From assembly GCA_963732385.1 (NCBI GenBank), contig CAVSZB010000007.1, positions 1,025,685-1,089,684 of the forward strand: a DNA stretch of 64,000 nucleotides. Direction: 5' to 3'. The notes under the pieces are model-generated. The model was given only the letters and a program-made list of their open reading frames with translations. It had not been told where the DNA came from and searched no databases. The first letter of the stretch is position 1. Each line of letters starts with the position of its first letter. A program made the position numbers and the translations under genes. This DNA comes from an uncultured bacterium. GTDB taxonomy: Bacteria; Krumholzibacteriota; Krumholzibacteriia; LZORAL124-64-63. Shown here in pieces: positions 15,579-57,670 of the stretch.

Positions 15579-15587
15579 TAGGCAATG

Positions 15588-15623
15588 AGCCGGTCCCGGC
15601 TCAGGTTTTCTGGGGTTTTTTGC
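15588..15623 (+). terminator. intrinsic terminator candidate 10 nt after the CPBP stop
   Basis: There is a perfect 7-bp stem GAGCCGG-tcc-CGGCTC followed by aggTTTTcTggggTTTTTTg. It overlaps the stop codon of the convergent gene 15601..16929. Confidence 0.45.
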
Positions 15624-16929
15624 GGGCGGCCGGAAAGAGAACATTGTTCAGGATCAGCCGGTAGCCGGGCGAGGTGGGGTAGAGGTCAAGATCGGTGGGC
15701 GGATCCCCCACCGCGTGCTGGTAGTCCTCGGGATCGTGCCCGCCGAGAAACGTGAACGTGCCCTGGCCATGCTTGCCGTGGAGGTAGCGCACCTCGTCAG
15801 TCCCCTCCACCTGCGCCAGCACGATCACCGGGCGCTTGAGAAACCGCCTGTGGAAGCCGGTGGTCTGGCCCATGAAACCGTTCAGCACGTTGACATGGTC
15901 CTGGGTCAGCATCGCCGGCACCGGGTCGATCTTCGCGGAAAAGCCGAAGAGGGTGAAATCGTCGCCTTCCGGACCGCGCAACTGCGCCTCCTCGGTGGTG
16001 TCGATCGTCGAGTACTCGTAGACCAGCGGGTTGACGACGAGACTCCAGCCCTGGAACGCGAAGGCGCGACCATCTTCCCGTTTCGCTTCGCGGGCCCCGT
16101 CGAGCCCGTCCCCGTCATATTCGACCGGCACGATGTCCACGACCAGATAGCTGAGCGCGATGTCGATCGTATCGGTGGCGGAACACATGGCGAACAGGAA
16201 GCCACCCGCCGACACGTAGTCCGAGATGCGCAACGCCACCGCCTGCTTGAGCTGCCAGACCTTCGCAAACCCTAGTTCGCGCGCCAGATTCTCATTGAAG
16301 TCCTTCTGCTCGAGATACCACGGTTCGAGCTGCAGGGAGTAGAACTTGCCCGACTGCCCGGTAAAATCCTCGTGGTGCAGGTGGATCCAGTCGAACTCGC
16401 GCAGCCCCCCCGCCAGCACCTCGCGGTCGTAGATCTTCGTGTAGGGGATGTCCGCATAGTCGAGCGCGAGCATCACGGCATCGTCCCACGGCTGCGCGTA
16501 GGGCGGCGTGTAGACCGCGATGCGCGGCGCGGCCTCCAGCAACACCTCTTCCATGTTCTCCCGCGCGACGGTCGCACGTACGACCGCCACATCCGCTTCG
16601 GACAACAGATCGAACCGCACGCCCATCACCCGCGCCTCGACCCGCGCACGCTCCGTCGCGCGCAGCAGGAAACTGCCGCCGCGGTAGTTCAGCAGCCAGC
16701 TGACCGGTTCATCCGCCTGCAGCGCGTGGTAGGCATACCCGTAGGCACGCAGGTGATTCGTCTGGCCCAGGTCCATCGGCACGAGCAGCCAGTCGGCGGC
16801 GCCGGCCGGGGCGGCGACACAGACGCAGACGAGCGCGAGCAGCCAGCCGGGCAGGCGTGTCGTCGCGCCGGGCGGCCCCCACGGCCGCGGACGCCCGCCG
16901 ACGCCGGAGAAGACGCAATGGCGTTTCAT
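15601..16929 (-). CDS. secreted hypothetical protein, possibly with a class-I glutamine-amidotransferase-like (ThuA/DUF4159-type) fold
   Basis: It is 442 aa. The N-terminal signal peptide reads LPGWLLALVCVCVAAPAGAA. It has a candidate nucleophile context LFAMCSATD. Its ATG overlaps the TPR gene stop (ATGA). The family assignment is tentative. Confidence 0.55.
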   Translation of the reverse strand: MKRHCVFSGVGGRPRPWGPPGATTRLPGWLLALVCVCVAAPAGAADWLLVPMDLGQTNHLRAYGYAYHALQADEPVSWLLNYRGGSFLLRATERARVEARVMGVRFDLLSEADVAVVRATVARENMEEVLLEAAPRIAVYTPPYAQPWDDAVMLALDYADIPYTKIYDREVLAGGLREFDWIHLHHEDFTGQSGKFYSLQLEPWYLEQKDFNENLARELGFAKVWQLKQAVALRISDYVSAGGFLFAMCSATDTIDIALSYLVVDIVPVEYDGDGLDGAREAKREDGRAFAFQGWSLVVNPLVYEYSTIDTTEEAQLRGPEGDDFTLFGFSAKIDPVPAMLTQDHVNVLNGFMGQTTGFHRRFLKRPVIVLAQVEGTDEVRYLHGKHGQGTFTFLGGHDPEDYQHAVGDPPTDLDLYPTSPGYRLILNNVLFPAARKKPQKT

Positions 16930-18965
16930 GGCCGACTCCGCAGGCGGTCGCGGACATCATCCGCGAACAGGTATTCCGGATACTGCACCAGCAGGCGCTC
17001 CCACGCCGCGCGCGCGCCGTCCGGATCGCCCCGGTCCAGCCTGATCTCCCCCTCCAGCGCCAGCGCCTCGGCGGGATAGCGACCGTCGGGGTGGTCGCGC
17101 ACGATTGCCGCGCACTGCGCGAGCGCTTCCGCAGAGCGGCCGGCGGTGCGATGGAGCCGCGCCAGTTCGTACCGGGCCTGCTCCAGCAGACGCGCGTCCG
17201 ACCCCGGATCGCCCGCCGCCACCGCAGTCGCCGCGTAACGCTCCAGGGCGAAGCACTGCGAATCCGGCTGCGCGGTGATCTGGAACAGCACGCTGCGAGC
17301 GTAGCGTCCCAGCGCCTCCGGCCCGCCGGCCGGATTTTCCAGCTCCTCGGCCACGATCAGGCCGAGCGCGAGAGCATCATTGGCGTAGTCGGCCAGCGGG
17401 TTCTCGAGCGCCACGGCGGCGAGCCGATCGCGGGCCGTCTCAAAGTGGCCCTCCGCCAGGTCGAGCCGCGCCAGCGCCCAGTGCGCGCTCCCGGCGGCGG
17501 CCCGCTGCGCGGTGTGGGGGGTGCGCCCGAGCTGCGTCAGCACGACCCGCCCGCGCGCCGTATCGCCCGCCGCGAGATAGCACTCCCCCAGCGCCAGGCG
17601 CGCCAGCGCGACCCCCTCAAGCGGCAGGTCCAGGTCCGTGAGCATCCGCTCGAGCCGCGCGGCCGCCTCCGCCGGACGGTGCAGCGCGTCGCGGGTGTGG
17701 CGGGCGAGCAGAATCTGCGCCGCATAGAGGTGGGACGAGCCGGGGCTTCCCTCCCGCACGAGGGCCAGCACCCGGTCGAACCTCTGCGCCGCCGCCTCGG
17801 GATCGGCGGCGAGCAGCTCCGCGCGCAGGGCGTCCTCAGCGCTCTGGGCCAGCAGGTCGAGCGCGCGCGGCCGAAATCCGGGCGAGAGCGCGCCGGGAGC
17901 GCCGAGCCGCTCGAGGAGGGTCAGCAGGAACCCGGTCATCGCGCCGCGCGCGGCGGGGTCGGACGTCAACGGCGCCTCCCGGACAAGAGTGGCGCAGAGC
18001 TGCAACACGGCAGCCGCCTGATTCGGCTCGCCCAGAAGCGGCGTTACGGTCGCGATCGCCGCCGCCTCCTCCCCCAGGCGCAACTGCAGGCTCGCGGCCA
18101 GGATTGCCACTCCGCTCGCCCCGATTGCGTCCGGGTCGCCGAGCGCGCGCAGGGCGTGGACGAGCCGCCGGGACAGGTCCGGCGTCAACACCATGTCCAG
18201 CAGGTCCGCGCGCAGCAGCGGCAGGTTCAGCGGATCGGCGAGGGCCTGGTCCCGCAGCGCCTGCGCCCCTTCCGCGAGGCGGTCGAGGGCCAGCAGGCTG
18301 GCCGTCCGCTGGCGCGCCAGCAGCCGGACGCCGCCCGGTCGGCTGCCCATACGATCGCACAGCGCCAGCGCCTCATCGTGCCGTCCCGCGCGCTGCCACA
18401 GATCGACGGCCACGAGGGCGCCGCTGAGCGGGTCGGGGCTGACCGCGAGAAAACTGTCCACGACGGCCCGCGCGGCCGGCACCTCCGTCATGATCATCAG
18501 CGCCCCGGCCAACTCCCGCAGGAAACGCGCACTGCCCGGCTGCCCGGCCAGACCCTCGCGGCACAGGCGCACGGTCCCGGCGGGATCGCCCTCGGCCCTG
18601 GACAGGGCGATCCAGCGCGGCAGCGATTCGCGCCGGGGAACACCCTCCGCCTCCACGCCGGCCAGGGTCTGACGGGCCCGCGCGACCTGACCCAGGGCGA
18701 GCAGCTTGTCGACCTCCGCCAGCCGCAACTGCCACTCGGCCAGCGGCATGGCTGGCGAGAGCCGCGAACGCGGCAGCGGGATCATCCCCGGCGGCAAAGA
18801 GAGCGGCGGCTGATCAGGACCAGGCACGACCGGAGCGGGCCGCAAAGCGGGGGGGGGCGTCACCGGCCGCGCCGTCGCCAGGCGGATCGTCCCCCCGGGC
18901 CCTCCGCAGACGACCGCCAACATCAGGCTCACAACCAGCGCGCGGCCGGACCGGGTCGGCGTCAT
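16926..18965 (-). CDS. tetratricopeptide-repeat protein with an N-terminal signal peptide (BatC/BatE-like context)
   Basis: It is 679 aa, rich in A/L/R, with repeated xLAxAxxxLGxxxxA TPR-like units throughout. The signal peptide is MTPTRSGRALVVSLMLAVVCGG. Its ATG overlaps the downstream stop. Confidence 0.7.
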   Translation of the reverse strand: MTPTRSGRALVVSLMLAVVCGGPGGTIRLATARPVTPPPALRPAPVVPGPDQPPLSLPPGMIPLPRSRLSPAMPLAEWQLRLAEVDKLLALGQVARARQTLAGVEAEGVPRRESLPRWIALSRAEGDPAGTVRLCREGLAGQPGSARFLRELAGALMIMTEVPAARAVVDSFLAVSPDPLSGALVAVDLWQRAGRHDEALALCDRMGSRPGGVRLLARQRTASLLALDRLAEGAQALRDQALADPLNLPLLRADLLDMVLTPDLSRRLVHALRALGDPDAIGASGVAILAASLQLRLGEEAAAIATVTPLLGEPNQAAAVLQLCATLVREAPLTSDPAARGAMTGFLLTLLERLGAPGALSPGFRPRALDLLAQSAEDALRAELLAADPEAAAQRFDRVLALVREGSPGSSHLYAAQILLARHTRDALHRPAEAAARLERMLTDLDLPLEGVALARLALGECYLAAGDTARGRVVLTQLGRTPHTAQRAAAGSAHWALARLDLAEGHFETARDRLAAVALENPLADYANDALALGLIVAEELENPAGGPEALGRYARSVLFQITAQPDSQCFALERYAATAVAAGDPGSDARLLEQARYELARLHRTAGRSAEALAQCAAIVRDHPDGRYPAEALALEGEIRLDRGDPDGARAAWERLLVQYPEYLFADDVRDRLRSRP

Positions 18966-20827
18966 CGCACGGCTCCCGGAACCGGGGCCGGCTCCGGCCG
19001 ATCCGGCACCGCCACCGGCGGCGAGAGTAGATTCTCCAGCGCCAGGTAGTACCGCCGCACCAGATCGCGATAGTCCGCCGGAGCCTTCGCCACGGACTCC
19101 TGACGGCGTTGGAAGAAGGGCGCCGCACCACCCGCCGAAGGGGCGTCCCCTTCGCCCTGCTGCCGCGCGAACGGCGTCCCCGCGGCGCGGCTCTCGCGTC
19201 GCCGGGTGAAATCGCGCTTGCGGACCGAATTGTGCGCATCGAGCAACCGGCCCAGGATCCGCTCCTGTCGCGCGAGCGTTTCGTCGTCGACGCGCCCCGC
19301 CCCCAGATCGTCGGCCACCCGTTCCATGTCTCGCGCCAGCTGGTCAAGATCGCCCAGCACCCGTTCGCCCGGAGGCGCGGTCCGCTCGCCACGCGCCAGC
19401 TCCTCCAGCCGGCCGGCGAGCCCCCCCTGCTCCGACTGCAGTCGCTGCATGCGGGCCCGCGCCTCCTGGCTCGGTCCCTGCTTCTGCATCTGGCGCTGCA
19501 GTTCCTGCGCCAGGGCGTTGAGTCCCGCCTGTTCCTGGGCCATCTGCTGCAACTGCCCGCTCGGCGTCGGCATGGCCCCCCCGCCGCCACTCCCCTGCCC
19601 GGTCTGCTGCGCGGCGGTGAGCAGATCGATCACGATCCGGTTGATCTTCCCGATGCTGTCCCGCGATTCGCGTCTGGCCATGGCGCCGGTCCGCTGCTCC
19701 AGCCCCTGCACGGCGCCGTTGAGCCCCCCCACGACGGCGTCCAGATCGCGCATCATCCGCATGGAGATCGCAGGCGATCGGGAGCCGACCTCCTGCATCC
19801 GGTCACGCACCCCGCGCGCCGCCCGCAGCACGCGGTTCTGGCGCCGCGCCAGATCCCCCAGCGCCACGCCACGCAACTCGGCCGGCACCGAGCCGGCGAT
19901 CTCCTCCTCGCGCTCGGAGAGGGCCAGCAGATCCGCGGCGATACGGCGCAGATTGACGGCGGTGTACTGCTGCATGGCCCCCTGCATCTGCATCTGTCCA
20001 CGCAGCAGGACGTGATAAAGCGCGGCCAGTTCGCGCAAAGCCTGCTGCTGCGGCTCCTGCGGCGGTGGCGACGGCGACGGCGGGGGGGGCGGCGGCGCGG
20101 AGAGTCGGCGCGACGCTTCCGCCATATCCTGATCGGGCCGCTGCTCCTGCAGCTGCTTCAGCGCCTCCTGCAGCGCCTCGCGCATCGCCTCGGCCGTTGG
20201 ACCGGCTTCCCGGTCAGGGGCGCGGTCACGGTCGCGCTCGAGCCGGTCGAGCGCCTCGCGCAGCCGCGCCTCGAGTTGGCGCACCTCCTCCGCAAGGGCG
20301 GTCTGGCGCTGCGCTTCCTCTGCCGACTGCGGCGACGGTATTGGCGCCGACTGCGGCGACGCCGGAGACGGCGCCTGCTCCGCCGACCCGGTCCGGCCCG
20401 CGTCGGTGCGCTTCCCTGTGCTGTCGGTCCCGGCGGCGTCGAGCAGGGCCTGTTGTTCTCGCAGCAGGCGCTCGACCACCGACGTCAGCCCCTCCATCTC
20501 CTGTTCCCGGGCCATCTCCTTCAGCAACCCGATGGCGCGGTCGAGACGCTCCTTGTACTCCTCCTGGTTCCGGGCGATCTGCTCCATGGCCTGCCGCACC
20601 TGCTCCGGAGACAGCCCGGCGGCCTGTTCACGCAACTGTTCCAGGAGCCGGTCCAGCTCCTCGCTGCGCACCTGTTCGATCAGCGCGGCGACCTCCTGCA
20701 TCTTCCCGAGCAGTTCGACCGAGTTCAGGTTGTCCTGCTCGAGGCGCGCGATATCCTGCTGCAGCGCCTGCGCCGCGTTCCGGTACTCGTCCTGCAGGGC
20801 GCGCTGCCGTTCGAGCGCCGCCTGCAC
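18962..20827 (-). CDS. Gln/Glu/Arg-rich coiled-coil protein; probably the 3' part of a frameshifted single gene together with 20725..22635
   Basis: It is 621 aa with heptad-like composition (ALERQRALQDEYRNAAQALQQDIARLEQ...). Upstream of the track start, the frame stays open and protein-like: ...QGEELTHELEKLDRDLRQDARAGWEQRQQ. Confidence 0.6.
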   Translation of the reverse strand: MQAALERQRALQDEYRNAAQALQQDIARLEQDNLNSVELLGKMQEVAALIEQVRSEELDRLLEQLREQAAGLSPEQVRQAMEQIARNQEEYKERLDRAIGLLKEMAREQEMEGLTSVVERLLREQQALLDAAGTDSTGKRTDAGRTGSAEQAPSPASPQSAPIPSPQSAEEAQRQTALAEEVRQLEARLREALDRLERDRDRAPDREAGPTAEAMREALQEALKQLQEQRPDQDMAEASRRLSAPPPPPPSPSPPPQEPQQQALRELAALYHVLLRGQMQMQGAMQQYTAVNLRRIAADLLALSEREEEIAGSVPAELRGVALGDLARRQNRVLRAARGVRDRMQEVGSRSPAISMRMMRDLDAVVGGLNGAVQGLEQRTGAMARRESRDSIGKINRIVIDLLTAAQQTGQGSGGGGAMPTPSGQLQQMAQEQAGLNALAQELQRQMQKQGPSQEARARMQRLQSEQGGLAGRLEELARGERTAPPGERVLGDLDQLARDMERVADDLGAGRVDDETLARQERILGRLLDAHNSVRKRDFTRRRESRAAGTPFARQQGEGDAPSAGGAAPFFQRRQESVAKAPADYRDLVRRYYLALENLLSPPVAVPDRPEPAPVPGAVR

Positions 20828-22635
20828 CTGCTGCCGCTGCTCCCACCCGGCGCGGGCGTCCTGCCGCAGATCCCGGTCGAGCTTCTCGAGTTCATGCGTG
20901 AGCTCTTCCCCCTGCGACGCAGCCCCTCCAGCGCCTCCACCCGGTCCCGGCCGCCACCCACCTCGTCGGCAAGGATCTCGGTCGCCGATGGCAGGGCCAG
21001 CCGCAGCACAGACGAACGGGTGCTGCCGGACGGGCCAGGCTCGCGGTTGTCGGTGACCTCGACACAGAGCGCGAGCACGTCCCCCGACCGGAGTTCAAGC
21101 CCCGCGGTTTCCAGCGCCAGCGGCAGGGCGAGCGGCCCGGCCGGGACGGCACCCGCGAGCGGTCCCGCGGCCACCGCGGCGGCGCCCCACGACGTTGCCA
21201 GGCCGAGGGCCCCTTCCCCGCCAGGGCCGTGCGGCGGCCAGATGGTGACGCGGCTCCAGTCCGGCCATTCACCGGCCGCCGTCTCCGCCGGCTCCCCCTC
21301 GCCACGTTCGCGGCGCAGCAGCAGATCGAGCCTGGTCACGCCATAGTCATCGCCGGCGCCGGCGACGAGCTCCACGTGCCCATCCCCCGGCAGGCGCCCG
21401 TCGTCGGCGGGACGCGTCAGAGTGGCCGCGGGCGGGGCGTCGGGAATCGCCTCGACGCCATAGGTCACGCGGGGGGAGTTCTCGAGACCGCGCCGATCGC
21501 GCAGCCGGACCGTGTAGACGAGCGCGTCCTTCACGACAGCGGCGCCGCGCAACGTGTCTCCCCGCACGACCAGCGGCACGGTATCGCCTCCGGCCGTGAC
21601 GACCACGGCGCGCGTGACCGCGCCCGCGGCGAGCCCCAGCCACGTCAGCCGGCTGCCGGAAGGCGCCTGCAGACGGCCCGGGAACCGCGCCATGGTCTGT
21701 GCCGGCAGGCGTGTGTAGGCGGGCGGCAGCAGCGTCCCGCCCCATACTCCCAGCAACGGCGGGTGGATGACAGTCACCGCGGCCTCGGCGGTGGTGGCGC
21801 CGTCACGACCGAAGCGGTAGACGAAGGACTCGCGCACATCCGGCAGAGTCGCCGACCAGGTTGTCCCCATCCGGCCGAACGGGGCGCGGGTCGGCGCGCA
21901 GGTCACCCGCTGCCACAGGCCGCTGCCGACACGCAGCTCGCAGGCCACCGGCGCACGATTGCGGCCGAGATCGCGCGCGGCAATGGTCACGTCGGCGCCG
22001 GCGATCACCTCGCGCGGTCCTTCGATCAGATAAATCCCTGCGCCGGGCGGGAGGCGTTCGTCGCGCAGCGGCAGCAGCAGCCGCAGGCCCCCGACCGCGA
22101 AGCGTTGCGGGGCCATCGCCCCGGCCCACAGGAGCAGACCGGCGGCCAGGGTCGCGCCGAGGATCGTCACCCAGGCGCCCGGCAGCGGCAGCCGTCGCCC
22201 CAGCCGGATTTCCAGCGTCCGGCCCAGCGCGGATGTGTACAGCCGGTCCACCAGCGCGGCCGACACGCCCGCCCCGGGGCCCCAGCGATCGGGCCGGCGG
22301 GCCGCCTCCTCCGCCGCCACGAGCAGGTTGTCCAGCCCGCCCCGCTGTTCGAGCTCGCGGCAGAGGGCGCCGCGATCCCGCAGACGCAGCAGAGGTCGCG
22401 CCAGTCGTGTCCAGGCCACGGCCGCCACGAGCGCCAGCGTGCAGACCAGCAGTCCGCCCCGCGCCGCCGCCGAAGGGGCAATCTCGCCACCGAGCGCCCA
22501 GGCGGCGACGATCCCGAGGAGCCCCGCCGCCGCCACGAGGGAGAGGACGCCGTGGAGCAGCACGCGGCGCCGCGCGGCGCCCAGCAGGCACCCGAGCTCA
22601 CGGTCGAATCGCCCCCGGGACTCTGTGTCGGCCAT
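20725..22635 (-). CDS. membrane protein (3 TM N-terminus plus large extracytoplasmic domain); probably the 5' part of a frameshifted gene continuing into 18962..20827
   Basis: The TM helices are VLLHGVLSLVAAAGLLGIVAAWALG, LLVCTLALVAAVAWT and AWVTILGATLAAGLLLWAGAM. The last ~60 residues (KSSRMNSRSSTGICGRTPAPGG...) are low-complexity, off-frame-looking sequence. They overlap the next ORF by 100 nt. Confidence 0.6.
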   Translation of the reverse strand: MADTESRGRFDRELGCLLGAARRRVLLHGVLSLVAAAGLLGIVAAWALGGEIAPSAAARGGLLVCTLALVAAVAWTRLARPLLRLRDRGALCRELEQRGGLDNLLVAAEEAARRPDRWGPGAGVSAALVDRLYTSALGRTLEIRLGRRLPLPGAWVTILGATLAAGLLLWAGAMAPQRFAVGGLRLLLPLRDERLPPGAGIYLIEGPREVIAGADVTIAARDLGRNRAPVACELRVGSGLWQRVTCAPTRAPFGRMGTTWSATLPDVRESFVYRFGRDGATTAEAAVTVIHPPLLGVWGGTLLPPAYTRLPAQTMARFPGRLQAPSGSRLTWLGLAAGAVTRAVVVTAGGDTVPLVVRGDTLRGAAVVKDALVYTVRLRDRRGLENSPRVTYGVEAIPDAPPAATLTRPADDGRLPGDGHVELVAGAGDDYGVTRLDLLLRRERGEGEPAETAAGEWPDWSRVTIWPPHGPGGEGALGLATSWGAAAVAAGPLAGAVPAGPLALPLALETAGLELRSGDVLALCVEVTDNREPGPSGSTRSSVLRLALPSATEILADEVGGGRDRVEALEGLRRRGKSSRMNSRSSTGICGRTPAPGGSSGSRCRRRSNGSAPCRTSTGTRRRRCSRISRASSRTT

Positions 22636-22663
22636 CGTTGCTCCCGCCGCGCCGCGCGTCGGT

Positions 22664-23359
22664 TCAGGGACTGGTCAGGGCGTACATGAGAACGTTCACG
22701 GCCATCCGGACCGCCGCCTCGCGGAGCGCGGGCGGATCGCCGTGCACCTCCGGATCTTCCAGCCCGTCCCCGATGTCGCTGGAGAAACTGTAGAAGACGA
22801 CCAGACGACCGCCACGATATACGCCGAACCCTTGCGCCGGTTCCCCGTCGTGTTCGTGGATCTTGGGCAGGCCCGGCAGATCATAGAAGGCGTGGTAGAT
22901 CGGATCGTCCGAGCCGACCCGCCGCAGCGGCGCGTCGGGATAGAGCCGCACCATCAATTCCCGGAACGACGCATCCAGACCATAGTTGTCGTCGGCCCAG
23001 AGGAAGCCCCCCGCCTCGAGGTAGCGCCGCAGGACCGTCAGTTCCGCCTCCGCGAGCGCAATGCGGCCGTGTCCGGTCAGATACAGCAGCGGATAGCGGT
23101 GGAGGTCCTCACTGTCGAGGGCGACGACCGCCTCCTCGCGCGCGGTCGGCAGCCCGGTGCGCGCGGCGAACTGCTCCAGCCAGTTCGGCAGCGAACTGGG
23201 ATTGGCGTACCAGTCACCCCCGCCCGGATAGCGCAGCCGTCCCACCTGGAGATCGGATTCGGCCGCCGCCGCGACCGGGATACCGGCCACGCCGGCGAGC
23301 AGGGCCAGCACGACCGCACCCGCCACCGCGAGGGCGGCCGCGGCGCGGCTGGGGGCCAT
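22664..23359 (-). CDS. DUF4159-like secreted protein (GATase1-like; a family I recall as associated with MoxR/vWA Bat-type operons)
   Basis: The signal peptide is MAPSRAAAALAVAGAVVLALLAGVAGIPVAAAAE. The conserved blocks are RYPGGGDWYANP, YPLLYLTGHG and GGFLWADDNYG. I chose the start as the Met giving a canonical signal peptide and no overlap with the HK upstream. Confidence 0.6.
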   Translation of the reverse strand: MAPSRAAAALAVAGAVVLALLAGVAGIPVAAAAESDLQVGRLRYPGGGDWYANPSSLPNWLEQFAARTGLPTAREEAVVALDSEDLHRYPLLYLTGHGRIALAEAELTVLRRYLEAGGFLWADDNYGLDASFRELMVRLYPDAPLRRVGSDDPIYHAFYDLPGLPKIHEHDGEPAQGFGVYRGGRLVVFYSFSSDIGDGLEDPEVHGDPPALREAAVRMAVNVLMYALTSP

Positions 23360-23372
23360 CCGCCGGGCGGCC

Positions 23373-26300
23373 TCAGGGCCGGTGCTCATCCTCCCCCACC
23401 TCCTCGCCGCCGGTACCGGCGCGGTCAAAACCCTGTGCCGCGCGCGGCAGGGTCACCGCCACCACCGCGCCGCCGCTATCGGCCCGATTGGAGAGCGCGA
23501 TGCGTCCCCCCATGCGGTCGAGCAGGCTGCGGCAGATCGCCAGGCCGAGTCCGGTGCCCTGGCTCTTGGTGGAGAAATACAGTTCGAACAGGCGGTCGGC
23601 CATGTCCGGCGGAACGCCGGGCCCGTTGTCCTCCCAGAGCAGCGTCACTTCGCGCTCCCCGATCTCCCACCGGACCCGCAACTCCAGGCGGGATGGCTCC
23701 CCCACCGCCTGCAGAGAGTTCTCCATCAGGTTGCCCAGCACCTTCCCGATCGCCTCGGCATCGGCCAGCACCGGCGGCACGGCATCGGGATCGATCGTGA
23801 CCCGCGGACCGACGCCCACTACTCCACCGGCGCGGTAGCGCGCCGTCACCTGTCGCGCGGCGTCCGGCAGGTCCAGTGGCGCCACCGGCAGCGCGCCCGG
23901 CTTGCCGAGCAGGCTGAACTCGATGGCGATAGCGCGCAACAGCGCCACCTGTTCCAGCACCTGGCGCACCGTGTCGCGCACGATCCCGTCCAGCTCCGGA
24001 GCACGGTCGCGGTAGGCCTGCTCCAGGAACTGGACCGAAAGCTGGATCGGCGTGAGCGGATTCTTGATCTCGTGCGCCACCTGTTGCGCCAGTTCGGAAT
24101 TCAGCGCCAGCCGCTTGTTGTCGAGAAACTCCGTCACATCCTCGCAGACAAGCAGCGTGTCCGAGCGTCCGTCCGGCAGACGCAGGGGGGCGACCCGGCC
24201 GCGCACGATGCGCCGGCCATCGGCCGCGCGCAGTTCAGCCTCCCCCTGCGGCACGTCACCCAGTCGGGCGCGCAGGCCGGCCAGCAGCGCCCGCACCCGC
24301 CCCTCGCGGCCCGCACCGGCGCCGCCCGCGAAGGCGTCCGCGATCGCAACGGCGGCCGGATTGAGCGCCGTCACGCCGCCGTCGGCGCCAAACACCGCCA
24401 CGCCGACCGGCACGTGCTCCAGAATCGTGGCGAGGAAGCGCTCCCGCTCGGCCACCGTCCGCTGCGCCTGGGCCAGATCGTCGCGCATGCTGCGGTAGGC
24501 CGCGCTCAACAGGCCGATCTCGTCGCCGCCGCTCTCTGGCAGCGGCGCCGCGAAGTCCCCTGTCGCGAGACTGCGCGTGGCGGTGACCAGCACGCGCACC
24601 GGGCCGAAGATCTTCCAGGCGAGCGCCAGCGCCAGGGCCGCGGCCGCCAGGAAGATGAGCGCCGCCAGGCCAACCAGGAAAAGCGCCATCCGCTCCCGCT
24701 GCCCTGCGAGGTCGCGCTCCCGGGCCGGGAACGTCACCGACAGGGCGGCCGGCACGGGACGGCGCCGCAGGCCCGGCGCGCCGGAATCGACCGCGAGGGC
24801 CGGCAGCGCCACAGTCGCCGTGTAGGAGAGCCACGTGCCAGGCGCCGCGGCCAGCGCGGGGCTGCCGGGGTAGAGCGCGATCTGGCGCGCCGTGACGGGC
24901 GGCAGGAGCGCCGGAACCGCCCCCGCGAACAGCCGCTCGGGGTGGCTGGCGAGCACCGTCGCACCGCCCGCGCTCAACGCCACCTCCCCCTGGATGATCT
25001 CGGCCAGGCCGTTCATCAGACCGGAATCGACCCGTTGCCGGTAGAAGAAGAAGCCGTCACGGCGTTCGTCGGCAAGGCTGTCGGCCGGCGCAGCACGGCC
25101 GGACGACGGCGCGAATCCGGACAGATCGACCGGCACGACGAGTCCCAGGTACAGGACATCGCCCGACTCCATGAGGATGAGCGGCGCCGCGCGCGCTGCC
25201 GCCAGGAACCGCCGCGCCTCTTCCGCGTCGAGATCGCTGAGGGTCTCGTCAAGCAGCAGTTCGCCATCGCCCGTGAATACCATCGCCTGGCGCACCGAGA
25301 ACGGCCCGAGCGGGCGCTGTCCGGCCAGCCGGCTCGCCAGCAGGTCGGCGATGTACTCGCTGCCGGCCAGGGCCCGCGCCTGTTCGCTCAGCAGGCCCTG
25401 CAACTGCGCGACGGCCGCCTCGATCCCGTCGCGGGTCTGCTCGCGTGCGCCCGCCGCCAGTCCCTGCACGGTGAGACGATCCATGAACAGTCCGGCCAGC
25501 AGCAGCGGCAGCAGGCCGAGCACCAGCACCGCCGCGAGGAACCGCTGCTGGAAACCGAGCGACGGCCGGGGCCGGCGCGCCAGCCGCAGCGGCAGCAGCG
25601 GCGCAACCAGGCACGCGGCGAGCAGCAGATCGAGCAGGACCAGGCGGGAGGCGTCGAGCAGGCGATCCGCCAGACGCGGTCGTTCGAGTCCGAGCAGGAA
25701 CCCCTCGCCGGGCGAGCCGGCGGCCGGCTCCGGCAGGCGTTTCCAGAGACAGCGGTACGCCAATCCGCCCGCGCGCACCGTGGCCCAGCGCGCGCGGCCG
25801 GCCTTGAGCACGCCGGTGACAGCGGTCTCGTCCGCGTCGGGAAAGAGGCCGGGGCCCGCGTCGAGCCAGCCGCGATCGTCTCCGCGCAGGAGCAGAATCG
25901 CGCGGTCCACCTCGGCTCGCGGCACGTAGCCGGACGCCCCCGCCGGCGACGGCGTCCCCTCCAGACGGGCCAGCAGCGTGCGGATGCGCCGCGACTGCAC
26001 CGGCAACTCGATCCTGATCCAGCCGCCCCCGCCGGCCCTGGGCACCTCTCCGCGCAGGATCCACTCCTCGCCGGAAGGATAGCGGCGCCGCTCCGTCTGC
26101 GTGCGCAGCCCGGCCGGGATCAGGCCGCCCTCCTCCGGCGAGACCACGGTCAGCCACACCCCACGCTCGCCGACTTCGTAACGGAAGTCGCGGAAGAAGC
26201 CGGAGGCGAACAGACTTTCCCGCTCCCCGTACGGGTCGATCAGTTCCACCAGGCAGGGCAGGCCGAGATCGCCAAGATCCGACCTCCGCCACAGTTCGTA

Positions 26301-28271
26301 AGCGGACCAGTCGCGCCAGACACCGGTGGGGGGCGGCGCGCCGCTCCCGGTCAAAGCGCTGACGCCCGGCTCGGCGCTGGCCATGCCAGACAGAGCGTCC
26401 CCCAGCAGGAACCGCGTCCACTCCTGCTGCGGGAGAACGATTTCGTCCCCCTTGCGTTCGAGCCAGGCCACTTCCGCACGCCCGTAGGCTCCGGCAAGCG
26501 CGGCGTAGTTCCAGACCACGATCACCACCGCCGCGGCGAGCAACGTCAGCCGCTGCGACGCAGTGTACGACACCCCGGCCGCTGCGAGCGCGGGACCGCG
26601 CGCGCGGCCGGTCACCCAGATGAGCAGCACCAGCAGCGGCAGGAGCGCACGCGTCACCAATTCCAGACCGGGAAACCCGACCCCCACGGCCACCGCGGAC
26701 AGCAGGACGGCGACCAGATCGGTGCGGCGACCACCCGCGCGGGCCAGACGTCGCGCACCGGCGTGCAGCAGAGTCAACAACGTCCCGGCGCCGAGCAGGA
26801 GCACCAGGTGCAACGCCCAGAAACTCAGCGACCGGTACGGGGCCTTCAATCCGATGAGCCGGGGATTGGCGTTTTCCGCCACGGTGAAGACGAACGCCCG
26901 CAGCAGCAGCAGACCGCCCGCAGCCAGCAGGCCCCAAACCACGGCGCGCCACAAGACGGCCGGTCGGGGCGCCCCCGTCGCGGCGTCGTCCGCCGGACCG
27001 CCACTCGCCAAACGCCGCGCGATCAGCACCGCCACGCCCGCCGCCAGCAGCACGGTGAGCACCGCGTCCGCCGACGACGCCAGGCCGCCGCCCAGCGTCG
27101 GGGTGGCGAAGTAGGCGGGGTCGAGCAGGCTGGACGGATCACCGGGCAACGCCGGCAGCTCTCCCCCGGGAAAGGCCGGTTGCACCCAGCGCACCGCGTC
27201 TGCCCGCGCCAGCAGCAGGCGCGCCCCTACCGCCCCGGTCAGCGCCAGCACAACGCCTCCCCGGGCCGCGCCCCAGGCGACGAACCCCACCGCCAGAATC
27301 AGCAGCCAGAGCAACAGCCGACGCGCAGCGGTCTGGTGGGTCTGGACGGCGAGGGACGGCGCGACCAGCGTCAGCCGCAGCCAGAGGGCGCGGCCCGCCT
27401 CGTCGGGATCCGGCAGCGGCAGATCCACGCCGGCGTACAGGCCGTTGGCGGCGTCATCGGCGACGAACGGCTGCTCGCCCGCGGGCGAATCGACGACGCG
27501 CGCCAGCCCGCCGGCCTGCGCCGCGATCTCCCGACCACCGGCCGGGTCGCGCCCGTCACCGGCGACCGTTGCCGGCGCCAAACGCACCTGCATCTCCAGC
27601 ACCGAGGAACCGCCGCCCGGCGTCACCGCGATCCGCCGGAAGCGGCGCCAGGTCCAGGCGTCGCGGTCCCGCTCGATGACCCCCGCCGCGCCTTCGGTCG
27701 CGGCCCGCGCCAGCGCCGGCATCGCCGCCAGCGGGGCCGCGCCGGCGTCCCAGGCAACCCGCTCCCCGTCGCGCCAGAGCGCGAGGCCAAGCGGGAAGCG
27801 AGCCGCCGCGCTGCCCCGGCGCGTCCAGCCCGCCGCCAGACGCTGCAGGACCGTGAAGGGATCGGCCGCCGCCACCTCGCGCACGGAAGCCGCGCTCGCC
27901 AGGGCGTCGAACGCGGCGGTCAGTTCCGTAAGTGTGGGAGCCAGCGTGCTGGCGCGCGCCGCGAGGGCTGCGCGATCGTGCCGGGCCCGCACGTCGGGTG
28001 GTTCCTGGCGCACCAAAGGGAGAGCGGCCACGGCCAGGGCGGCGAATTGCGCGAGTAGCAGCAGACCCAGCGCAGCGCGCCGACGTCCCGTAACAACCGG
28101 CCACCACAGCCAGACTCCGCCAAGGACGAACAACGTGGCGGCGAACAGCAGGGCCGGCGGATCGAGGCGCGGCAGATGACCACCGGCCACTGCAAGCGCC
28201 ACCGGCAGGGCCTGCAGGAGCAGACCGGCCACCGCGAGGCTGGCCCCGAGCCGCGCACGTCCGGGATTCAT
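23373..28271 (-). CDS. giant (1632 aa) polytopic sensor histidine kinase with no adjacent cognate regulator: about 18-20 TM segments with interspersed periplasmic domains, then HAMP, PAS, HisKA and HATPase_c
   Basis: HAMP is ALALAWKIFGPVRVLVTATRSLATGDF...IGLLSAAYRSMRDDL. The H-box is AHEIKNPLTPIQLSVQFLEQA. The N-box is LGNLMENSLQAV. G1/G2 are WEDNGPGVP...GTGLGLAICRSLL. The N-terminal 1150 aa alternate hydrophobic helices with soluble segments. Confidence 0.75.
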   Translation of the reverse strand: MNPGRARLGASLAVAGLLLQALPVALAVAGGHLPRLDPPALLFAATLFVLGGVWLWWPVVTGRRRAALGLLLLAQFAALAVAALPLVRQEPPDVRARHDRAALAARASTLAPTLTELTAAFDALASAASVREVAAADPFTVLQRLAAGWTRRGSAAARFPLGLALWRDGERVAWDAGAAPLAAMPALARAATEGAAGVIERDRDAWTWRRFRRIAVTPGGGSSVLEMQVRLAPATVAGDGRDPAGGREIAAQAGGLARVVDSPAGEQPFVADDAANGLYAGVDLPLPDPDEAGRALWLRLTLVAPSLAVQTHQTAARRLLLWLLILAVGFVAWGAARGGVVLALTGAVGARLLLARADAVRWVQPAFPGGELPALPGDPSSLLDPAYFATPTLGGGLASSADAVLTVLLAAGVAVLIARRLASGGPADDAATGAPRPAVLWRAVVWGLLAAGGLLLLRAFVFTVAENANPRLIGLKAPYRSLSFWALHLVLLLGAGTLLTLLHAGARRLARAGGRRTDLVAVLLSAVAVGVGFPGLELVTRALLPLLVLLIWVTGRARGPALAAAGVSYTASQRLTLLAAAVVIVVWNYAALAGAYGRAEVAWLERKGDEIVLPQQEWTRFLLGDALSGMASAEPGVSALTGSGAPPPTGVWRDWSAYELWRRSDLGDLGLPCLVELIDPYGERESLFASGFFRDFRYEVGERGVWLTVVSPEEGGLIPAGLRTQTERRRYPSGEEWILRGEVPRAGGGGWIRIELPVQSRRIRTLLARLEGTPSPAGASGYVPRAEVDRAILLLRGDDRGWLDAGPGLFPDADETAVTGVLKAGRARWATVRAGGLAYRCLWKRLPEPAAGSPGEGFLLGLERPRLADRLLDASRLVLLDLLLAACLVAPLLPLRLARRPRPSLGFQQRFLAAVLVLGLLPLLLAGLFMDRLTVQGLAAGAREQTRDGIEAAVAQLQGLLSEQARALAGSEYIADLLASRLAGQRPLGPFSVRQAMVFTGDGELLLDETLSDLDAEEARRFLAAARAAPLILMESGDVLYLGLVVPVDLSGFAPSSGRAAPADSLADERRDGFFFYRQRVDSGLMNGLAEIIQGEVALSAGGATVLASHPERLFAGAVPALLPPVTARQIALYPGSPALAAAPGTWLSYTATVALPALAVDSGAPGLRRRPVPAALSVTFPARERDLAGQRERMALFLVGLAALIFLAAAALALALAWKIFGPVRVLVTATRSLATGDFAAPLPESGGDEIGLLSAAYRSMRDDLAQAQRTVAERERFLATILEHVPVGVAVFGADGGVTALNPAAVAIADAFAGGAGAGREGRVRALLAGLRARLGDVPQGEAELRAADGRRIVRGRVAPLRLPDGRSDTLLVCEDVTEFLDNKRLALNSELAQQVAHEIKNPLTPIQLSVQFLEQAYRDRAPELDGIVRDTVRQVLEQVALLRAIAIEFSLLGKPGALPVAPLDLPDAARQVTARYRAGGVVGVGPRVTIDPDAVPPVLADAEAIGKVLGNLMENSLQAVGEPSRLELRVRWEIGEREVTLLWEDNGPGVPPDMADRLFELYFSTKSQGTGLGLAICRSLLDRMGGRIALSNRADSGGAVVAVTLPRAAQGFDRAGTGGEEVGEDEHRP

Positions 28272-28302
28272 CGGATGGCGGCCTCCCGCGTCACGCAGGG
28301 AC

Positions 28303-28773
28303 TCAACGGATGGCGCGGACGCCGGTCAGCCCCCATCCCGCCTCCCCGCGCGCCAGCGTGATGATCAACCGCTCTGGCGCCGCCCCGCTCTCGCCCGACC
28401 GCCGGCGGGTCCAGTCCGCCACCGCGTGCACGAGACCGGTCTCCAGTTCCTCGTTCAGCAGGCTGTAACGGAAAGAGACCGTCTCGGTGGACTGGAAGAG
28501 GTTCTTGAAAAAATAGAAGGCCTGACTCGCGCTGTAGTGGTTGCGCGCCCCCCCCTGCCCAAAGGCAATGTCCACACCGTCGGGTGCGACCCGCGCCGCC
28601 AGCGCCCCGTGATCCTCCGCTTCCCAGACCCGAGCGAGCGCGTCCAGCACCGGCCGCGCCGGTGGCGGTTCCTCGCGGACCGTTCCGGCCCCTGCCAGCC
28701 GACTCACCGCGAAAACCACCAGCAAGGCCGGCAAAAGACCGTTTCGGCAGGACCGGAGAACAGCGGAATTCAC
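28303..28773 (-). CDS. small secreted hypothetical protein (about 156 aa)
   Basis: A GTG start follows GAGGGGAGAAGG. The signal peptide is VNSAVLRSCRNGLLPALLVVFAVSRLAGAG. The conserved-looking core is YSASQAFYFFKNLFQSTETVSFRY. The track ORF up to 29007 would overlap secF. Confidence 0.5.
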   Translation of the reverse strand: MNSAVLRSCRNGLLPALLVVFAVSRLAGAGTVREEPPPARPVLDALARVWEAEDHGALAARVAPDGVDIAFGQGGARNHYSASQAFYFFKNLFQSTETVSFRYSLLNEELETGLVHAVADWTRRRSGESGAAPERLIITLARGEAGWGLTGVRAIR

Positions 28774-28899
28774 GAACCTTCTCCCCTCGGATCCCGGAAC
28801 ACGCTGAAGCGCCGGGGTCCAACCGCAAGGGGCATGCCAAGCCGGCGACTTCCCGCTCTCCCCTATTGTACAGCAGGGCGACCGGTCCGGAAAGACAGC

Positions 28900-28930: not shown

Positions 28931-28957
28931 GCGCTCCCGAGTGGACGTCGGCGCCGC

Positions 28958-29887: not shown

Positions 29888-29929
29888 CTCGTCCCGACCT
29901 TTCCTGGCGCCCGCCGGGCGCCGGCGGCG

Positions 29930-55787: not shown

Positions 55788-56680
55788 TCACACCAGTCGA
55801 CGGCGCCGGCCGAGGAACGCGTGCAGCGCGCTCTCCAGCGGCGCCTCTGTCCCCACCTCGACCAGGTCCACCAGGTGGCGGCGACACTCGCGGCGCAGGC
55901 CGTCCCGCCAGGCGTCGAACCTGACCCGGTACTCGGCCGCCGCCAGGGCCGGTTCGACCCGCACCTTCCGCCCCGGGTGCTCCAGGTCGGTCAGCTCCAG
56001 TTCGCGGCGGAAGTCGAGGTCGCGCTCGCGCGGGTCGAGCAGGTGGAAAACGACCACCTCGTGGCCGCGGTGCCGGAAGTGCTTCAGCCCCGACAGCACC
56101 TCGGCCGGCTCGTCCAGCAGATCGGAGAAGAGCACGATCAACCCGCGGCGGTGCACCCGCTCCGCCACGCCGTGCAGGACCGGACCGAGGCGCGTGCCGG
56201 CCCCCTGCGGCGCCGCCTCGAGTTCCCGCAGGATCTGGAACAGCTGCCGCCGCACCGAGCGGGCCGGCACGATCGCCAGCGGTTTCTCGTCGAAGGTGAC
56301 CAGGCCGACGGCGTCGTTCTGGCGCAGCAGCAGGTAGGCGAACGAGGCCGCCAGCAGGCGCGCATACGCCAGCTTGGTCGGACGCTCCGGATCGGAGGTG
56401 AACGCCATGCTCGCCGAACAGTCGAGCAGCAGGGTCGCGCGGAGATTCGTCTCCTCGGCAAAGACCTTCAGGTAGTGGCGATCGCTGCGGGCGTAGAGCC
56501 GCCAGTCGAGGTGGGTGGTCGGTTCGCCCGGGATGTACTGGCGATACTCGGCGAACTCCACGGAGAAGCCGTGGTACGGACTCCTGTGCCGGCCGGTGAG
56601 GAAGCCCTCCACGACGAGCCGCGCCACGAGGTCGAGCCGCCCCAGACGGCTCGCCAGCTCCGGCGTCAGCAGGGGCCTCG

Positions 56681-56684
<4 letters not shown>
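55788..56684 (-). CDS. DUF58-family protein (MoxR-associated vWA-like)
   Basis: It has the GFLTGRHRSPYHGFSVEFAEYRQYIPGEP...LLLDCSASMAF blocks. I place the start at a GTG overlapping the moxR stop by 4 nt. The track Met at 56867 would overlap moxR by 187 nt. Confidence 0.75.

Positions 56685-57670
<986 letters not shown>

What the first reader, a model, noticed from the sequence alone, without database searches (positions are those of the whole stretch)
15601..28271. Envelope gene cluster resembling the MoxR/vWA Bat (aerotolerance-type) system, but lacking the ATPase and vWA core
Six genes are consecutive and mostly translationally coupled. They are a secreted GATase-like protein, a TPR protein, the split membrane/coiled-coil protein, a DUF4159-like secreted protein, a 1632-aa polytopic kinase and a small secreted protein. 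The TPR and DUF4159 partners are typical companions of MoxR-DUF58-BatA/BatB operons in Bacteroidota and Planctomycetota. Here the MoxR-DUF58-BatA trio sits 25 kb away (53586-57670). The system appears split into two loci and expanded with a giant sensor kinase. I am not aware of this arrangement having been characterised.
Basis: partly seen in the sequence, partly recalled or inferred. Interest (0 to 1): 0.55.

Follow-up and report, generated by a model that had tools for sequence, protein, structure and literature searches.

The report
Conserved envelope operon with secreted amidotransferase-like enzyme
This is a real, conserved but uncharacterised cell-envelope operon of uncultured FCB-group bacteria: a giant sensor kinase plus four exported proteins, one of them a very highly conserved secreted enzyme-like protein that databases wrongly call asparagine synthetase B; its proposed link to the MoxR/Bat system is only partly supported.

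Summary
The gene cluster at 15601-28773 (minus strand) is real. Profile searches confirm DUF4159, DUF4175, a TPR protein and a 1632-aa HAMP-PAS-HisKA-HATPase kinase. An AlphaFold model of the 442-aa protein (pLDDT 85.5) has a class I glutamine-amidotransferase-like fold. The "split" membrane/coiled-coil protein is one DUF4175 gene broken by a 1-nt deletion at 20914/20913. Relatives encode one 1185-1234 aa protein.

The core is a four-gene module, DUF4159-DUF4175-TPR-GATase-like protein. It lies upstream of the 442-aa gene in 16 of 55 informative genome loci from several FCB phyla. The kinase was found only in the window's own lineage.

The 442-aa family occurs in at least 596 species genomes at 52-65% cross-phylum identity. 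It has no Pfam or NCBIfam model. Its public name, "asparagine synthetase B", is unsupported.

The MoxR-DUF58-BatA locus is confirmed. It sits 37-46 kb from the 442-aa gene, on the same strand, in three genomes of this lineage. In Latescibacterota, MoxR directly follows the 442-aa gene. None of 30 multidomain DUF4159 proteins carries a BatA domain.

Verdict: a new variant of Bat/MoxR-associated envelope clusters, of moderate interest. The mechanism is inferred, not shown.

The parts
28303..28773 (-). Small (about 156 aa) predicted secreted protein upstream of the kinase, with a signal-peptide-like N-terminus (LLPALLVVFAVSRLAGAG). Possibly NTF2/SnoaL-like.
   Evidence: GC3 of 0.80-0.90 in this frame, and a GTG start preceded by GGAGAAGG. 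The only Pfam hints are non-significant: SnoaL_2 E 0.13 and DUF4783 E 0.17. Conservation in relatives could not be tested.
23373..28271 (-). 1632-aa polytopic sensor histidine kinase. It has about 13 TM segments and three loops of about 250 aa (85-317, 594-870, 930-1196), followed by HAMP-PAS-HisKA-HATPase_c.
   Evidence: Pfam HAMP 3.4e-12, PAS_4 1.1e-4, HisKA 2.2e-6, HATPase_c 3.3e-21. Best NCBIfam match is AtoS-like. Hydropathy. The N-terminal 1200 aa match no Pfam family or PDB sequence. Orthologues of 1550-1634 aa occupy the same position in L001, L002, L086 and L088, and an end-truncated one (>=1402 aa visible) does so in L003.
22664..23389 (-). DUF4159 protein (241 aa from the start used in L001), with an N-terminal signal or anchor helix.
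   Evidence: Pfam PF13709 E 3.1e-58, full-length match. The nearest solved structure is the uncharacterised Hoch_4089, PDB 4i66, E 2e-16. Invariant His/Asp positions are listed.
18962..22635 (-). DUF4175 membrane/coiled-coil protein (about 1224 aa when repaired). It has three N-terminal TM segments, a beta-rich region, a long Glu/Gln/Arg-rich coiled-coil with a Pro-rich linker, and a conserved C-terminus. Here it is interrupted by a 1-nt deletion between 20914 and 20913.
   Evidence: Pfam PF13779 at 35.6-37.1 bits against a cut-off of 27.3. The two reading frames join at RRR|GEELTHELEKL. Single-base gap against L001. Single genes of 1185-1234 aa in relatives.
16926..18965 (-). 679-aa TPR protein with an N-terminal hydrophobic segment. 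Its C-terminal repeats are YbgF/CpoB-like.
   Evidence: TPR_19 E 4.5e-13 and TPR_6 E 4.8e-6. Weak tol_pal_ybgF match at aa 592-669. Conserved in this position in 19 of 55 loci.
15601..16929 (-). 442-aa secreted class I glutamine-amidotransferase-like protein ('GAT442'). Invariant residues include C249, H398 and E401, plus a His-rich HxHHED motif at 183-188.
   Evidence: AF2 model with pLDDT 85.5 and pTM 0.85. Foldseek PDB hits to STM3548 (2gk3, E 1e-7), STM1381 (3soz), the GH42 middle domain, SpuA and CTP synthase. Invariant columns in 92 sequences. No Pfam, NCBIfam or PDB sequence match. At least 596 species genomes carry it.
56681..57670 (-). MoxR-type AAA+ ATPase (distant locus).
   Evidence: AAA_3 E 3.4e-64 and AAA_lid_2. 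58-61% identical to the MoxR that follows GAT442 in Latescibacterota.
55788..56684 (-). DUF58 (vWA-like) protein. The start is inferred from the 298-aa orthologue.
   Evidence: DUF58 E 7.3e-45. Orthologues of 298-301 aa overlap the MoxR stop.
53586..55754 (-). 722-aa BatA-type protein: an N-terminal double-TM domain, a vWA domain and a long C-terminal region with a C-terminal TM segment.
   Evidence: BatA E 8.1e-20 and VWA_2 E 8e-11. TIGR02226 E 2.3e-18. A few homologues carry precomputed DUF4350 or ThuA hits.

Best explanation
The region is one operon, conserved by descent, that encodes an envelope-facing protein set.

The core is a four-gene module: DUF4159, DUF4175, a TPR protein and a secreted class I GATase-like protein (GAT442). 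In this lineage a giant 13-TM histidine kinase and a small secreted protein have been added between secDF and the module.

Inferred mechanism:
- DUF4175 has three TM helices and a very long coiled coil. Together with signal-anchored DUF4159 it forms a scaffold anchored in the inner membrane and reaching into the periplasm.
- The TPR protein bridges the partners.
- GAT442 is the catalytic subunit, most likely a cysteine (Cys-His-Glu) amidohydrolase or peptidase acting on an envelope substrate.
- The kinase senses the state of this assembly or of the envelope through its three periplasmic loops, and signals to a response regulator encoded elsewhere.
- The MoxR-DUF58-BatA locus probably supplies the AAA+/vWA maturation function for the module. 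It is co-linear with the module in Latescibacterota and lies 37-46 kb away here.

Shown: gene content, order and conservation, the fold of GAT442, the frameshift, and the adjacency to MoxR in one phylum. Inferred: complex formation, catalysis, what the kinase senses, and dependence on MoxR.
For: - Domain assignments.
- Tight spacing and overlapping stop/start codons.
- Same order, HK-DUF4159-DUF4175-TPR-GAT442, in L001, L002, L003, L086 and L088. GAT442 identity is 64-93% while DUF4175 is only 32-37% identical in L002 and L003.
- The four-gene module without the kinase occurs in MAGs labelled Eisenbacteria, Krumholzibacteriota, Latescibacterota, Neomarinimicrobiota and 'FCB group'. It is present in 16 of 55 loci that have at least 6 kb of upstream sequence.
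- All module proteins have N-terminal hydrophobic signal or anchor segments.
- GAT442 has a GATase1-like fold. Invariant C249 sits directly after strand 244-248 and at the start of helix 250-260. Invariant H398 and E401 sit just after strand 390-395. These are the canonical places for the class I GATase triad (established knowledge of the fold).
- MoxR directly follows GAT442 in L027, L064 and L068. In L043 one gene intervenes. GAT442 identity between these lineages is only 66-71% and the other flanking genes differ.
- DUF4159 is repeatedly fused to, or next to, transmembrane signalling parts: ECF sigma, FecR and Reg_prop, including a Reg_prop protein just upstream of DUF4159 in L027. A sensor partner is therefore a recurring theme.
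Against: - There are no experimental data on any component.
- Literature searches for DUF4159 and DUF4175 found nothing functional.
- In 39 of 55 informative loci (Bacteroidota, Ignavibacteria, Cloacimonadota, Calditrichota and others) GAT442 stands alone in varied contexts. It can therefore work without adjacent module genes.
- MoxR adjacency is confined to one phylum. The 37-46 kb spacing in the window's lineage may be plain synteny.
- None of the 30 multidomain DUF4159 proteins examined has a BatA domain.
- Profile-profile comparisons among GAT442, DUF4159 and the BatA C-terminus are not significant.
- No response regulator lies next to the kinase.
- The DUF4175 gene is frameshifted in this window, so the module may be defective here.
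Confidence: 0.5

Rival explanations
1. The DUF4159-DUF4175-TPR-GAT442 module is a self-contained envelope system with no functional tie to MoxR/DUF58/BatA. On this reading, the adjacency in Latescibacterota and the 37-46 kb spacing here are inherited synteny only.
For: Only 4 of 82 loci have MoxR within 10 kb. None of 30 multidomain DUF4159 proteins has a BatA domain. MoxR-DUF58 is itself followed by Fe-S assembly genes in both phyla (NifU-NifS here, SufBDS in Latescibacterota), which points to a different partner.
Against: The GAT442-MoxR junction persists in three Latescibacterota lineages with 66-71% GAT442 identity, while the genes downstream of MoxR differ (DUF58-SufB versus MurD-like). 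In L068 the upstream module genes are absent and an integrase plus a restriction-modification system lie upstream of GAT442. Gaps of 38 nt suggest co-transcription.
Confidence: 0.33
2. The two DUF4175 ORFs are a genuine biological split: two subunits, or a programmed -1 frameshift.
For: The two ORFs overlap in the way a split gene would. From memory only, the TIGR02302 curators noted a naturally split homologue in Bradyrhizobium.
Against: A 93%-identical relative has one extra A at exactly this point and an intact gene. All five relatives examined have one gene. The tail of the upstream ORF reads as out-of-frame Arg/Ser-rich sequence. There is no X XXY YYZ slippery heptamer at CGCAGGGGGAAG.
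Confidence: 0.08
3. The 442-aa protein is asparagine synthetase B, as public records name it.
For: NCBI and UniRef records carry that name.
Against: There is no match to any Pfam or NCBIfam model, including the AsnB domains, even at E <= 10. The protein has a signal peptide and its fold is class I GATase-like. AsnB instead uses an N-terminal nucleophile (class II) domain plus a synthetase domain (established knowledge).
Confidence: 0.01
4. GAT442 is a non-catalytic GATase1-like binding or scaffold domain, like the GH42 middle domain or ThuA-like proteins, or a metal-binding protein that uses its invariant His cluster. On this reading it is not a Cys hydrolase.
For: The best fold matches (STM3548, STM1381, GH42 middle domain) have no proven triad chemistry. 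The invariant HxHHED at 183-188 and H345, H384 and H405 suggest a metal site.
Against: Invariant C249 lies at the nucleophile-elbow position and invariant H398/E401 at the expected C-terminal loop. About 110 invariant columns across phyla is typical of an enzyme.
Confidence: 0.3

Closest known systems
Bacteroides aerotolerance (Bat) / MoxR-vWA operons (MoxR, DUF58, BatA, BatB, BatC-TPR, BatD, BatE), as described for Bacteroides, Leptospira and Francisella (PMC3557215)
   Same: Both are envelope-facing sets of membrane-anchored, signal-peptide and TPR proteins thought to form a periplasmic complex. A MoxR-DUF58-BatA trio exists in the same genome, and in Latescibacterota MoxR is contiguous with the module. 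In both cases the function is still elusive.
   Different: The cluster itself has no ATPase, no vWA protein and no BatD. It has DUF4159, DUF4175 and a GATase1-like protein instead, plus a giant histidine kinase.
DUF4159 (PF13709; structure 4i66, Hoch_4089) and DUF4175 (PF13779 / TIGR02302) proteins, uncharacterised families
   Same: The window proteins pass the Pfam thresholds. The DUF4175 layout (N-terminal TM helices plus a long low-complexity, coiled C-terminal region) matches the family description, which I recall from memory.
   Different: The DUF4175 match covers only about 140 of 825 profile positions, and TIGR02302 does not match. DUF4159 here is a stand-alone protein rather than a fusion.
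Class I glutamine amidotransferase-like superfamily: STM3548/STM1381 (2gk3, 3soz), GH42 beta-galactosidase middle domain, SpuA/PuuD-type gamma-glutamyl hydrolases, CTP synthase GATase domain
   Same: The fold matches (Foldseek E 1e-7 to 5e-4, TM about 0.5 on the target). A Cys follows the central strand and a His/Glu pair lies near the C-terminus.
   Different: There is no detectable sequence similarity. GAT442 is secreted, has an extra N-terminal alpha/beta subdomain and a roughly 100-aa insertion (about 260-365), and has an H-D-P-E rather than an H-x-E motif.
Kinase + MoxR + DUF58 + transglutaminase-like Cys enzyme clusters, e.g. the bifidobacterial PFNA cluster pkb2-fn3-aaa-atp-duf58-tgm (PMC8430577)
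   Same: The same logic applies: a membrane sensor kinase, a MoxR ATPase, DUF58 and an envelope enzyme with a catalytic-Cys fold, plus large secreted partners.
   Different: The kinase class differs (Ser/Thr versus His), as does the Cys-enzyme fold (transglutaminase versus GATase1-like). The parts are in one cluster there and in two loci here. There is no homology between the non-MoxR parts.

Membership tests
Bat / MoxR-vWA aerotolerance-type operon | MoxR (AAA_3) ATPase encoded in the cluster | tested here: not met
   No AAA_3 hit among the cluster proteins. MoxR is at 56681-57670, about 28 kb from the cluster edge. It is contiguous with the module only in Latescibacterota loci.
Bat / MoxR-vWA aerotolerance-type operon | DUF58 and BatA/BatB vWA membrane proteins in the cluster | tested here: not met
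   No DUF58, BatA or VWA hits in 15601-29007. They are present at 53586-56684.
Bat / MoxR-vWA aerotolerance-type operon | TPR partner (BatC/BatE-like) | tested here: met
   TPR_19, TPR_6 and a YbgF-like C-terminus in 16926-18965. Orthology to BatC was not tested.
Bat / MoxR-vWA aerotolerance-type operon | Role in oxidative or aerotolerance stress | not testable with these tools
   This needs expression or mutant data. Even for canonical Bat proteins the role is disputed (PMC3557215).
DUF4159 (PF13709) | Score above the Pfam gathering threshold over the whole domain | tested here: met
   197.1 bits against 25.9, profile positions 2-202 of 202.
DUF4175 (PF13779) / TIGR02302 | Score above the gathering threshold; N-terminal TM helices plus a long low-complexity C-terminal region | tested here: inconclusive
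   35.6-37.1 bits against 27.3, but only profile positions 189-327 of 825 are matched. TIGR02302 gives no hit. TM helices at 30-48, 56-74 and 151-169.
Class I glutamine amidotransferase-like superfamily (for the 442-aa protein) | Flavodoxin-like alpha/beta fold shared with GATase1 domains | tested here: met
   Model pLDDT 85.5. 36 PDB matches with E <= 1e-3, all GATase1-like domains.
Class I glutamine amidotransferase-like superfamily (for the 442-aa protein) | Cys-His-Glu catalytic triad in correct geometry | tested here: inconclusive
   C249, H398 and E401 are invariant in 92 sequences and placed at the expected secondary-structure positions. Distances in the model could not be measured, and the motif is H-D-P-E.
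Class I glutamine amidotransferase-like superfamily (for the 442-aa protein) | Sequence membership in a curated GATase1-clan family | tested here: not met
   No Pfam or NCBIfam hit even at E <= 10. No PDB sequence hit with a single sequence or a profile.
Asparagine synthetase B | N-terminal class II (Ntn) GATase domain plus Asn_synthase domain; cytoplasmic | tested here: not met
   No such domains found. An N-terminal signal peptide is present.
Two-component sensor histidine kinase | HisKA H-box and HATPase_c N/G boxes | tested here: met
   HisKA E 2.2e-6 and HATPase_c E 3.3e-21. HEIKNPL, DNGPGV and GTGLGL are readable in the translation.
Two-component sensor histidine kinase | Cognate response regulator encoded next to it | tested here: not met
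   No Response_reg domain in the cluster. The nearest is the RR-GGDEF at 10052-11194, which belongs to another signalling cluster.

The most novel reading that the evidence does not exclude
DUF4159-DUF4175-TPR-GAT442 would be a previously unrecognised envelope machine of the FCB superphylum. Its catalytic subunit would be a periplasmic Cys-His-Glu amidohydrolase, the GAT442 family, which has no Pfam model and is present in at least 596 species including cultured Bacteroidota. A MoxR-DUF58 AAA+/vWA chaperone pair would mature or remodel it, and lineage-specific sensors (a giant 13-TM kinase here, Reg_prop or FecR/ECF modules elsewhere) would monitor it. That would give the enigmatic MoxR/Bat systems a defined enzymatic client.
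Probability: 0.25. Interest if true: 0.7.

Novelty: new variant of a known kind. Interest (0 to 1): 0.45.

Why it matters
MoxR/Bat envelope systems are widespread, but their function has remained elusive for more than 20 years (PMC3557215). This cluster offers a concrete candidate client: a conserved four-gene module that is physically joined to MoxR in one phylum and contains a probable enzyme.

Separately, the 442-aa family is one of the more strongly conserved unknown proteins of the FCB superphylum. It shows 52-65% identity across phyla and about 110 invariant positions. It is secreted, has no domain model, and carries a misleading public name, so correcting that annotation is useful in itself. 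Homologues in cultured Bacteroidota such as Owenweeksia hongkongensis make the family experimentally tractable.

Tried and rejected
- The first AF2 run, with 32 close homologues, gave pLDDT 54 and was discarded. Adding Bacteroidota homologues fixed it.
- PDB sequence searches found nothing for GAT442 (single sequence and profile), the kinase N-terminus or the small protein.
- hhalign comparisons of GAT442, DUF4159 and the BatA C-terminus gave only a short, non-significant match around the 'LRxYLxxGGFL' strand. Common ancestry of the three is not claimed.
- A tblastn of DUF4159 against annotated plasmids, meant to find annotated MoxR contexts, gave only a resistance-island copy in Corynebacterium and an unannotated Gemmatirosa megaplasmid with no MoxR or BatA nearby.
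- The promoter/terminator scan was uninformative at 70% GC. It found 0 promoters and no more terminators than in shuffled sequence. The only notable hairpins lie at 15586-15614, between the convergent GAT442 and Rce1-like genes.
- Programmed frameshifting was considered and rejected (no slippery site, and close relatives are intact).
- The idea that the kinase is a core member was rejected. It is absent from most module-bearing loci.

Full report
**Observation**

The window is about 70% G+C, so raw ORF lists are noisy. A GC3 filter and profile searches leave a run of minus-strand genes downstream of secD (29930-31741) and secF (28958-29887):
- A small ORF at 28303-28773. GC3 reaches 0.80-0.90 in its frame, a GTG start follows GGAGAAGG, and the N-terminus looks like a signal peptide.
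- A 1632-aa histidine kinase at 23373-28271.
- A DUF4159 protein at 22664-23389 (Pfam E 3e-58).
- Two overlapping ORFs, 20725-22635 and 18962-20827. The first hits DUF4175 above the Pfam threshold.
- A 679-aa TPR protein at 16926-18965.
- A 442-aa protein at 15601-16929 with no family hit.

Stop and start codons overlap by 4 nt at the DUF4175/TPR and TPR/442-aa junctions. The overlap is 17 nt at kinase/DUF4159 if the start used in the relative L001 is taken. The other gaps are 28-31 nt. A convergent Rce1-like gene ends the unit.

**The 'split' protein**

Translating both frames shows that they join smoothly at ...EALEGLRRR | GEELTHELEKL.... Alignment with L001, a JGI metagenome contig 92.7% identical over 11.3 kb, shows one missing A between window 20914 and 20913: CGC-AGGGGG against CGCAAGGGGG. 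L001, L002, L086 and L088 encode a single protein of 1185-1234 aa, and L003 has a single open frame of about 1118 codons. The split is therefore an assembly error or a recent frameshift, not an architecture. No slippery heptamer is present. The repaired 1224-aa protein has three N-terminal hydrophobic segments. It also has a long Glu/Gln/Arg-rich region with a Pro-rich linker. It matches only positions 189-327 of the 825-position DUF4175 profile and does not match TIGR02302. It is a distant member of that family.

**The 442-aa protein (GAT442)**

It has a signal peptide. It matches no Pfam or NCBIfam model even at E <= 10 and no PDB sequence.

It nevertheless has more than 8000 relatives at the 90% cluster level. 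The listed ones are 65-93% identical, and some are named 'asparagine synthetase B'. They are 52-65% identical across MAGs labelled Fibrobacteraceae, Krumholzibacteriota, Eisenbacteria, Latescibacterota, Cloacimonadota, Calditrichaceae, Zixibacteria, Neomarinimicrobiota, Ignavibacteria, Chlorobiota, Kapabacteria and Bacteroidota. The cultured Owenweeksia hongkongensis also carries it.

A first AlphaFold model from 32 close homologues was poor, with pLDDT 54. Adding Bacteroidota homologues (92 sequences) raised it to pLDDT 85.5 and pTM 0.85. Foldseek against the PDB returned only class I glutamine-amidotransferase-like domains: STM3548 (2gk3, E 1e-7), STM1381 (3soz), GH42 beta-galactosidase middle domains, SpuA, lin1909 and CTP synthase.

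About 110 columns are invariant in the 92 sequences. C249 follows strand 244-248 and opens helix 250-260, which is the nucleophile-elbow position. H398 and E401 (GGHDPED) follow strand 390-395. There is also a His-rich HxHHED at 183-188. I read this as a probable Cys-His-Glu hydrolase. The geometry could not be measured, and a metal site is a live alternative.

**Conservation of the cluster**

tblastn and iterated HMMs built from the window proteins were run on 82 loci centred on GAT442.
- The order kinase-DUF4159-DUF4175-TPR-GAT442 recurs in L001, L002, L003, L086 and L088.
- A kinase C-terminal fragment precedes DUF4159 at the contig edge in L005 (Krumholzibacteriota).
- The four-gene module without the kinase occurs in Eisenbacteria (L008, L020, L023), Krumholzibacteriota (L018), Latescibacterota (L027, L043, L064), Neomarinimicrobiota (L034), an 'FCB group' MAG (L059) and unclassified MAGs (L007, L036, L053).
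- In total, 16 of the 55 loci with at least 6 kb of upstream sequence have the module.
- In L007, L036 and L053, SecD-SecF directly precede DUF4159. The kinase and the small ORF are thus inserted between secDF and the module in the window's lineage.
- In the other 39 loci (Bacteroidota, Ignavibacteria, Cloacimonadota, Calditrichota, Zixibacteria and others) GAT442 stands in unrelated contexts, next to M48 peptidases, DnaB, MlaD or tricorn protease.

**Link to MoxR/Bat**

The second locus is as described: MoxR (AAA_3, E 3e-64), DUF58, and a 722-aa BatA_N/TIGR02226 + vWA protein.

Evidence for a link:
- In Latescibacterota, MoxR follows GAT442 after 38-160 nt in L027, L064 and L068, and after one HEAT/PhyH gene in L043.
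- DUF58 comes next in L027 and L043.
- GAT442 is only 66-71% identical among the three independent lineages.
- The downstream genes differ (SufB/D/S in two loci, a MurD-like ligase in two).
- L068 lacks the upstream module genes and has an integrase and a restriction-modification system upstream of GAT442.
- In three genomes of the window's own lineage, both loci lie on the same strand, 36.7, 37.8 and 45.5 kb apart (GAT442 to BatA). This holds even where BatA identity falls to 45%.

Evidence against a link:
- Only 4 of 82 loci show adjacency.
- Of 3442 DUF4159 cluster representatives, I examined the 30 multidomain ones among the best 150. None has a BatA domain.
- Those 30 carry squalene-hopene-cyclase-like toroid domains (7), Reg_prop (3), FecR or ECF sigma (2) or subtilase (1).
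- The claim that DUF4159 is a typical Bat companion therefore remains a recollection, not a result.

Those fusions do show something else. DUF4159 repeatedly pairs with transmembrane signalling parts, and L027 has a Reg_prop/PorZ-like protein just upstream of DUF4159. This makes the giant kinase here look like one version of a recurring sensor partner.

**The kinase**

Hydropathy predicts three TM segments, a loop of about 230 aa, about six TM segments, a loop of about 275 aa, two TM segments, a loop of about 265 aa and a last TM segment. HAMP, PAS, HisKA and HATPase_c follow. The H, N, G1 and G2 boxes are readable in the translation. The first 1200 aa match nothing in Pfam or the PDB. No response regulator is adjacent. 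The nearest one (RR-GGDEF, 10052-11194) belongs to a separate HisKA-GAF-HD cluster.

**Mechanism (inferred)**

All module proteins are exported or membrane-anchored. The most economical reading is a complex anchored in the inner membrane and facing the periplasm. DUF4175 and DUF4159 would form the scaffold, the TPR protein would bridge partners, and GAT442 would be the enzyme. A lineage-specific sensor would monitor the assembly, and MoxR-DUF58(-BatA) would assist its maturation. This follows the general role proposed for MoxR with vWA partners (PMC3557215, PMC8430577). The bifidobacterial PFNA cluster (kinase, MoxR, DUF58, transglutaminase-like Cys enzyme; PMC8430577) is a functional analogue, not a homologue. 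Nothing here is experimentally shown. Literature searches for DUF4159 and DUF4175 returned no functional work.

**Verdict**

I rate this a new variant of the loosely defined Bat/MoxR-associated envelope clusters, of moderate interest. The most valuable by-product is the definition of the GAT442 family as a widespread, mis-annotated, probably enzymatic secreted protein.

Noticed in passing
window 51344-57670; L085 8106-14382; L087 8116-14363; L027 11390-18537; L043 12790-16223: MoxR-DUF58(-BatA) is followed on the same strand by Fe-S cluster assembly genes in two phyla that use different systems. These are NifU-NifS in the window and its relatives, and SufB/SufD/SufS in Latescibacterota. MoxR-DUF58 may therefore be tied to Fe-S biogenesis rather than, or as well as, the envelope module.
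   Followed up: partly
window 20913-20914: A single-base deletion relative to the 93%-identical contig L001 splits the DUF4175 gene into two ORFs. It is either an assembly error or a recent pseudogenisation.
   Followed up: yes
window 3561-11194: A signalling cluster holds two roughly 1050-1090-aa HisKA-HATPase_c-GAF-HD_5 proteins and a response regulator-GGDEF protein. It is syntenic in L002 and L086.
   Followed up: no
window 57533-59245 (+): A SpoIIE/PP2C-type phosphatase is transcribed divergently from MoxR. The arrangement is conserved in L085 and L087.
   Followed up: no
proteins P0292, P0308, P0317, P0322, P0331, P0347, P0376 (DUF4159 representatives): DUF4159 is fused to subtilase, squalene-hopene-cyclase-like alpha/alpha toroid, FecR, an ECF sigma factor and Reg_prop propeller domains, often as tandem DUF4159 copies. 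This hints at a role in extracytoplasmic sensing.
   Followed up: partly
L083 11965-13152 (Corynebacterium crudilactis plasmid pCRULAC1): A stand-alone DUF4159 gene, 40% identical to the window protein, sits beside a dihydrofolate reductase gene inside an IS26/IS6-rich multiresistance island.
   Followed up: no
L068 2806-7776: L064 carries DUF4159-DUF4175-TPR upstream of GAT442. The 97%-identical L068 instead has an integrase and an Eco57I/TaqI-type restriction-modification gene upstream, while GAT442-MoxR stay adjacent.
   Followed up: partly
window 59270-60898 (-); L087 4939-6594: A 542-aa protein with no Pfam hit is conserved between phosphofructokinase and the SpoIIE gene.
   Followed up: no
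window 28958-31741; L007, L036, L053: secD-secF lie immediately upstream of the module. In the window the small ORF and the kinase sit in between; in three other lineages secF abuts DUF4159 directly.
   Followed up: partly
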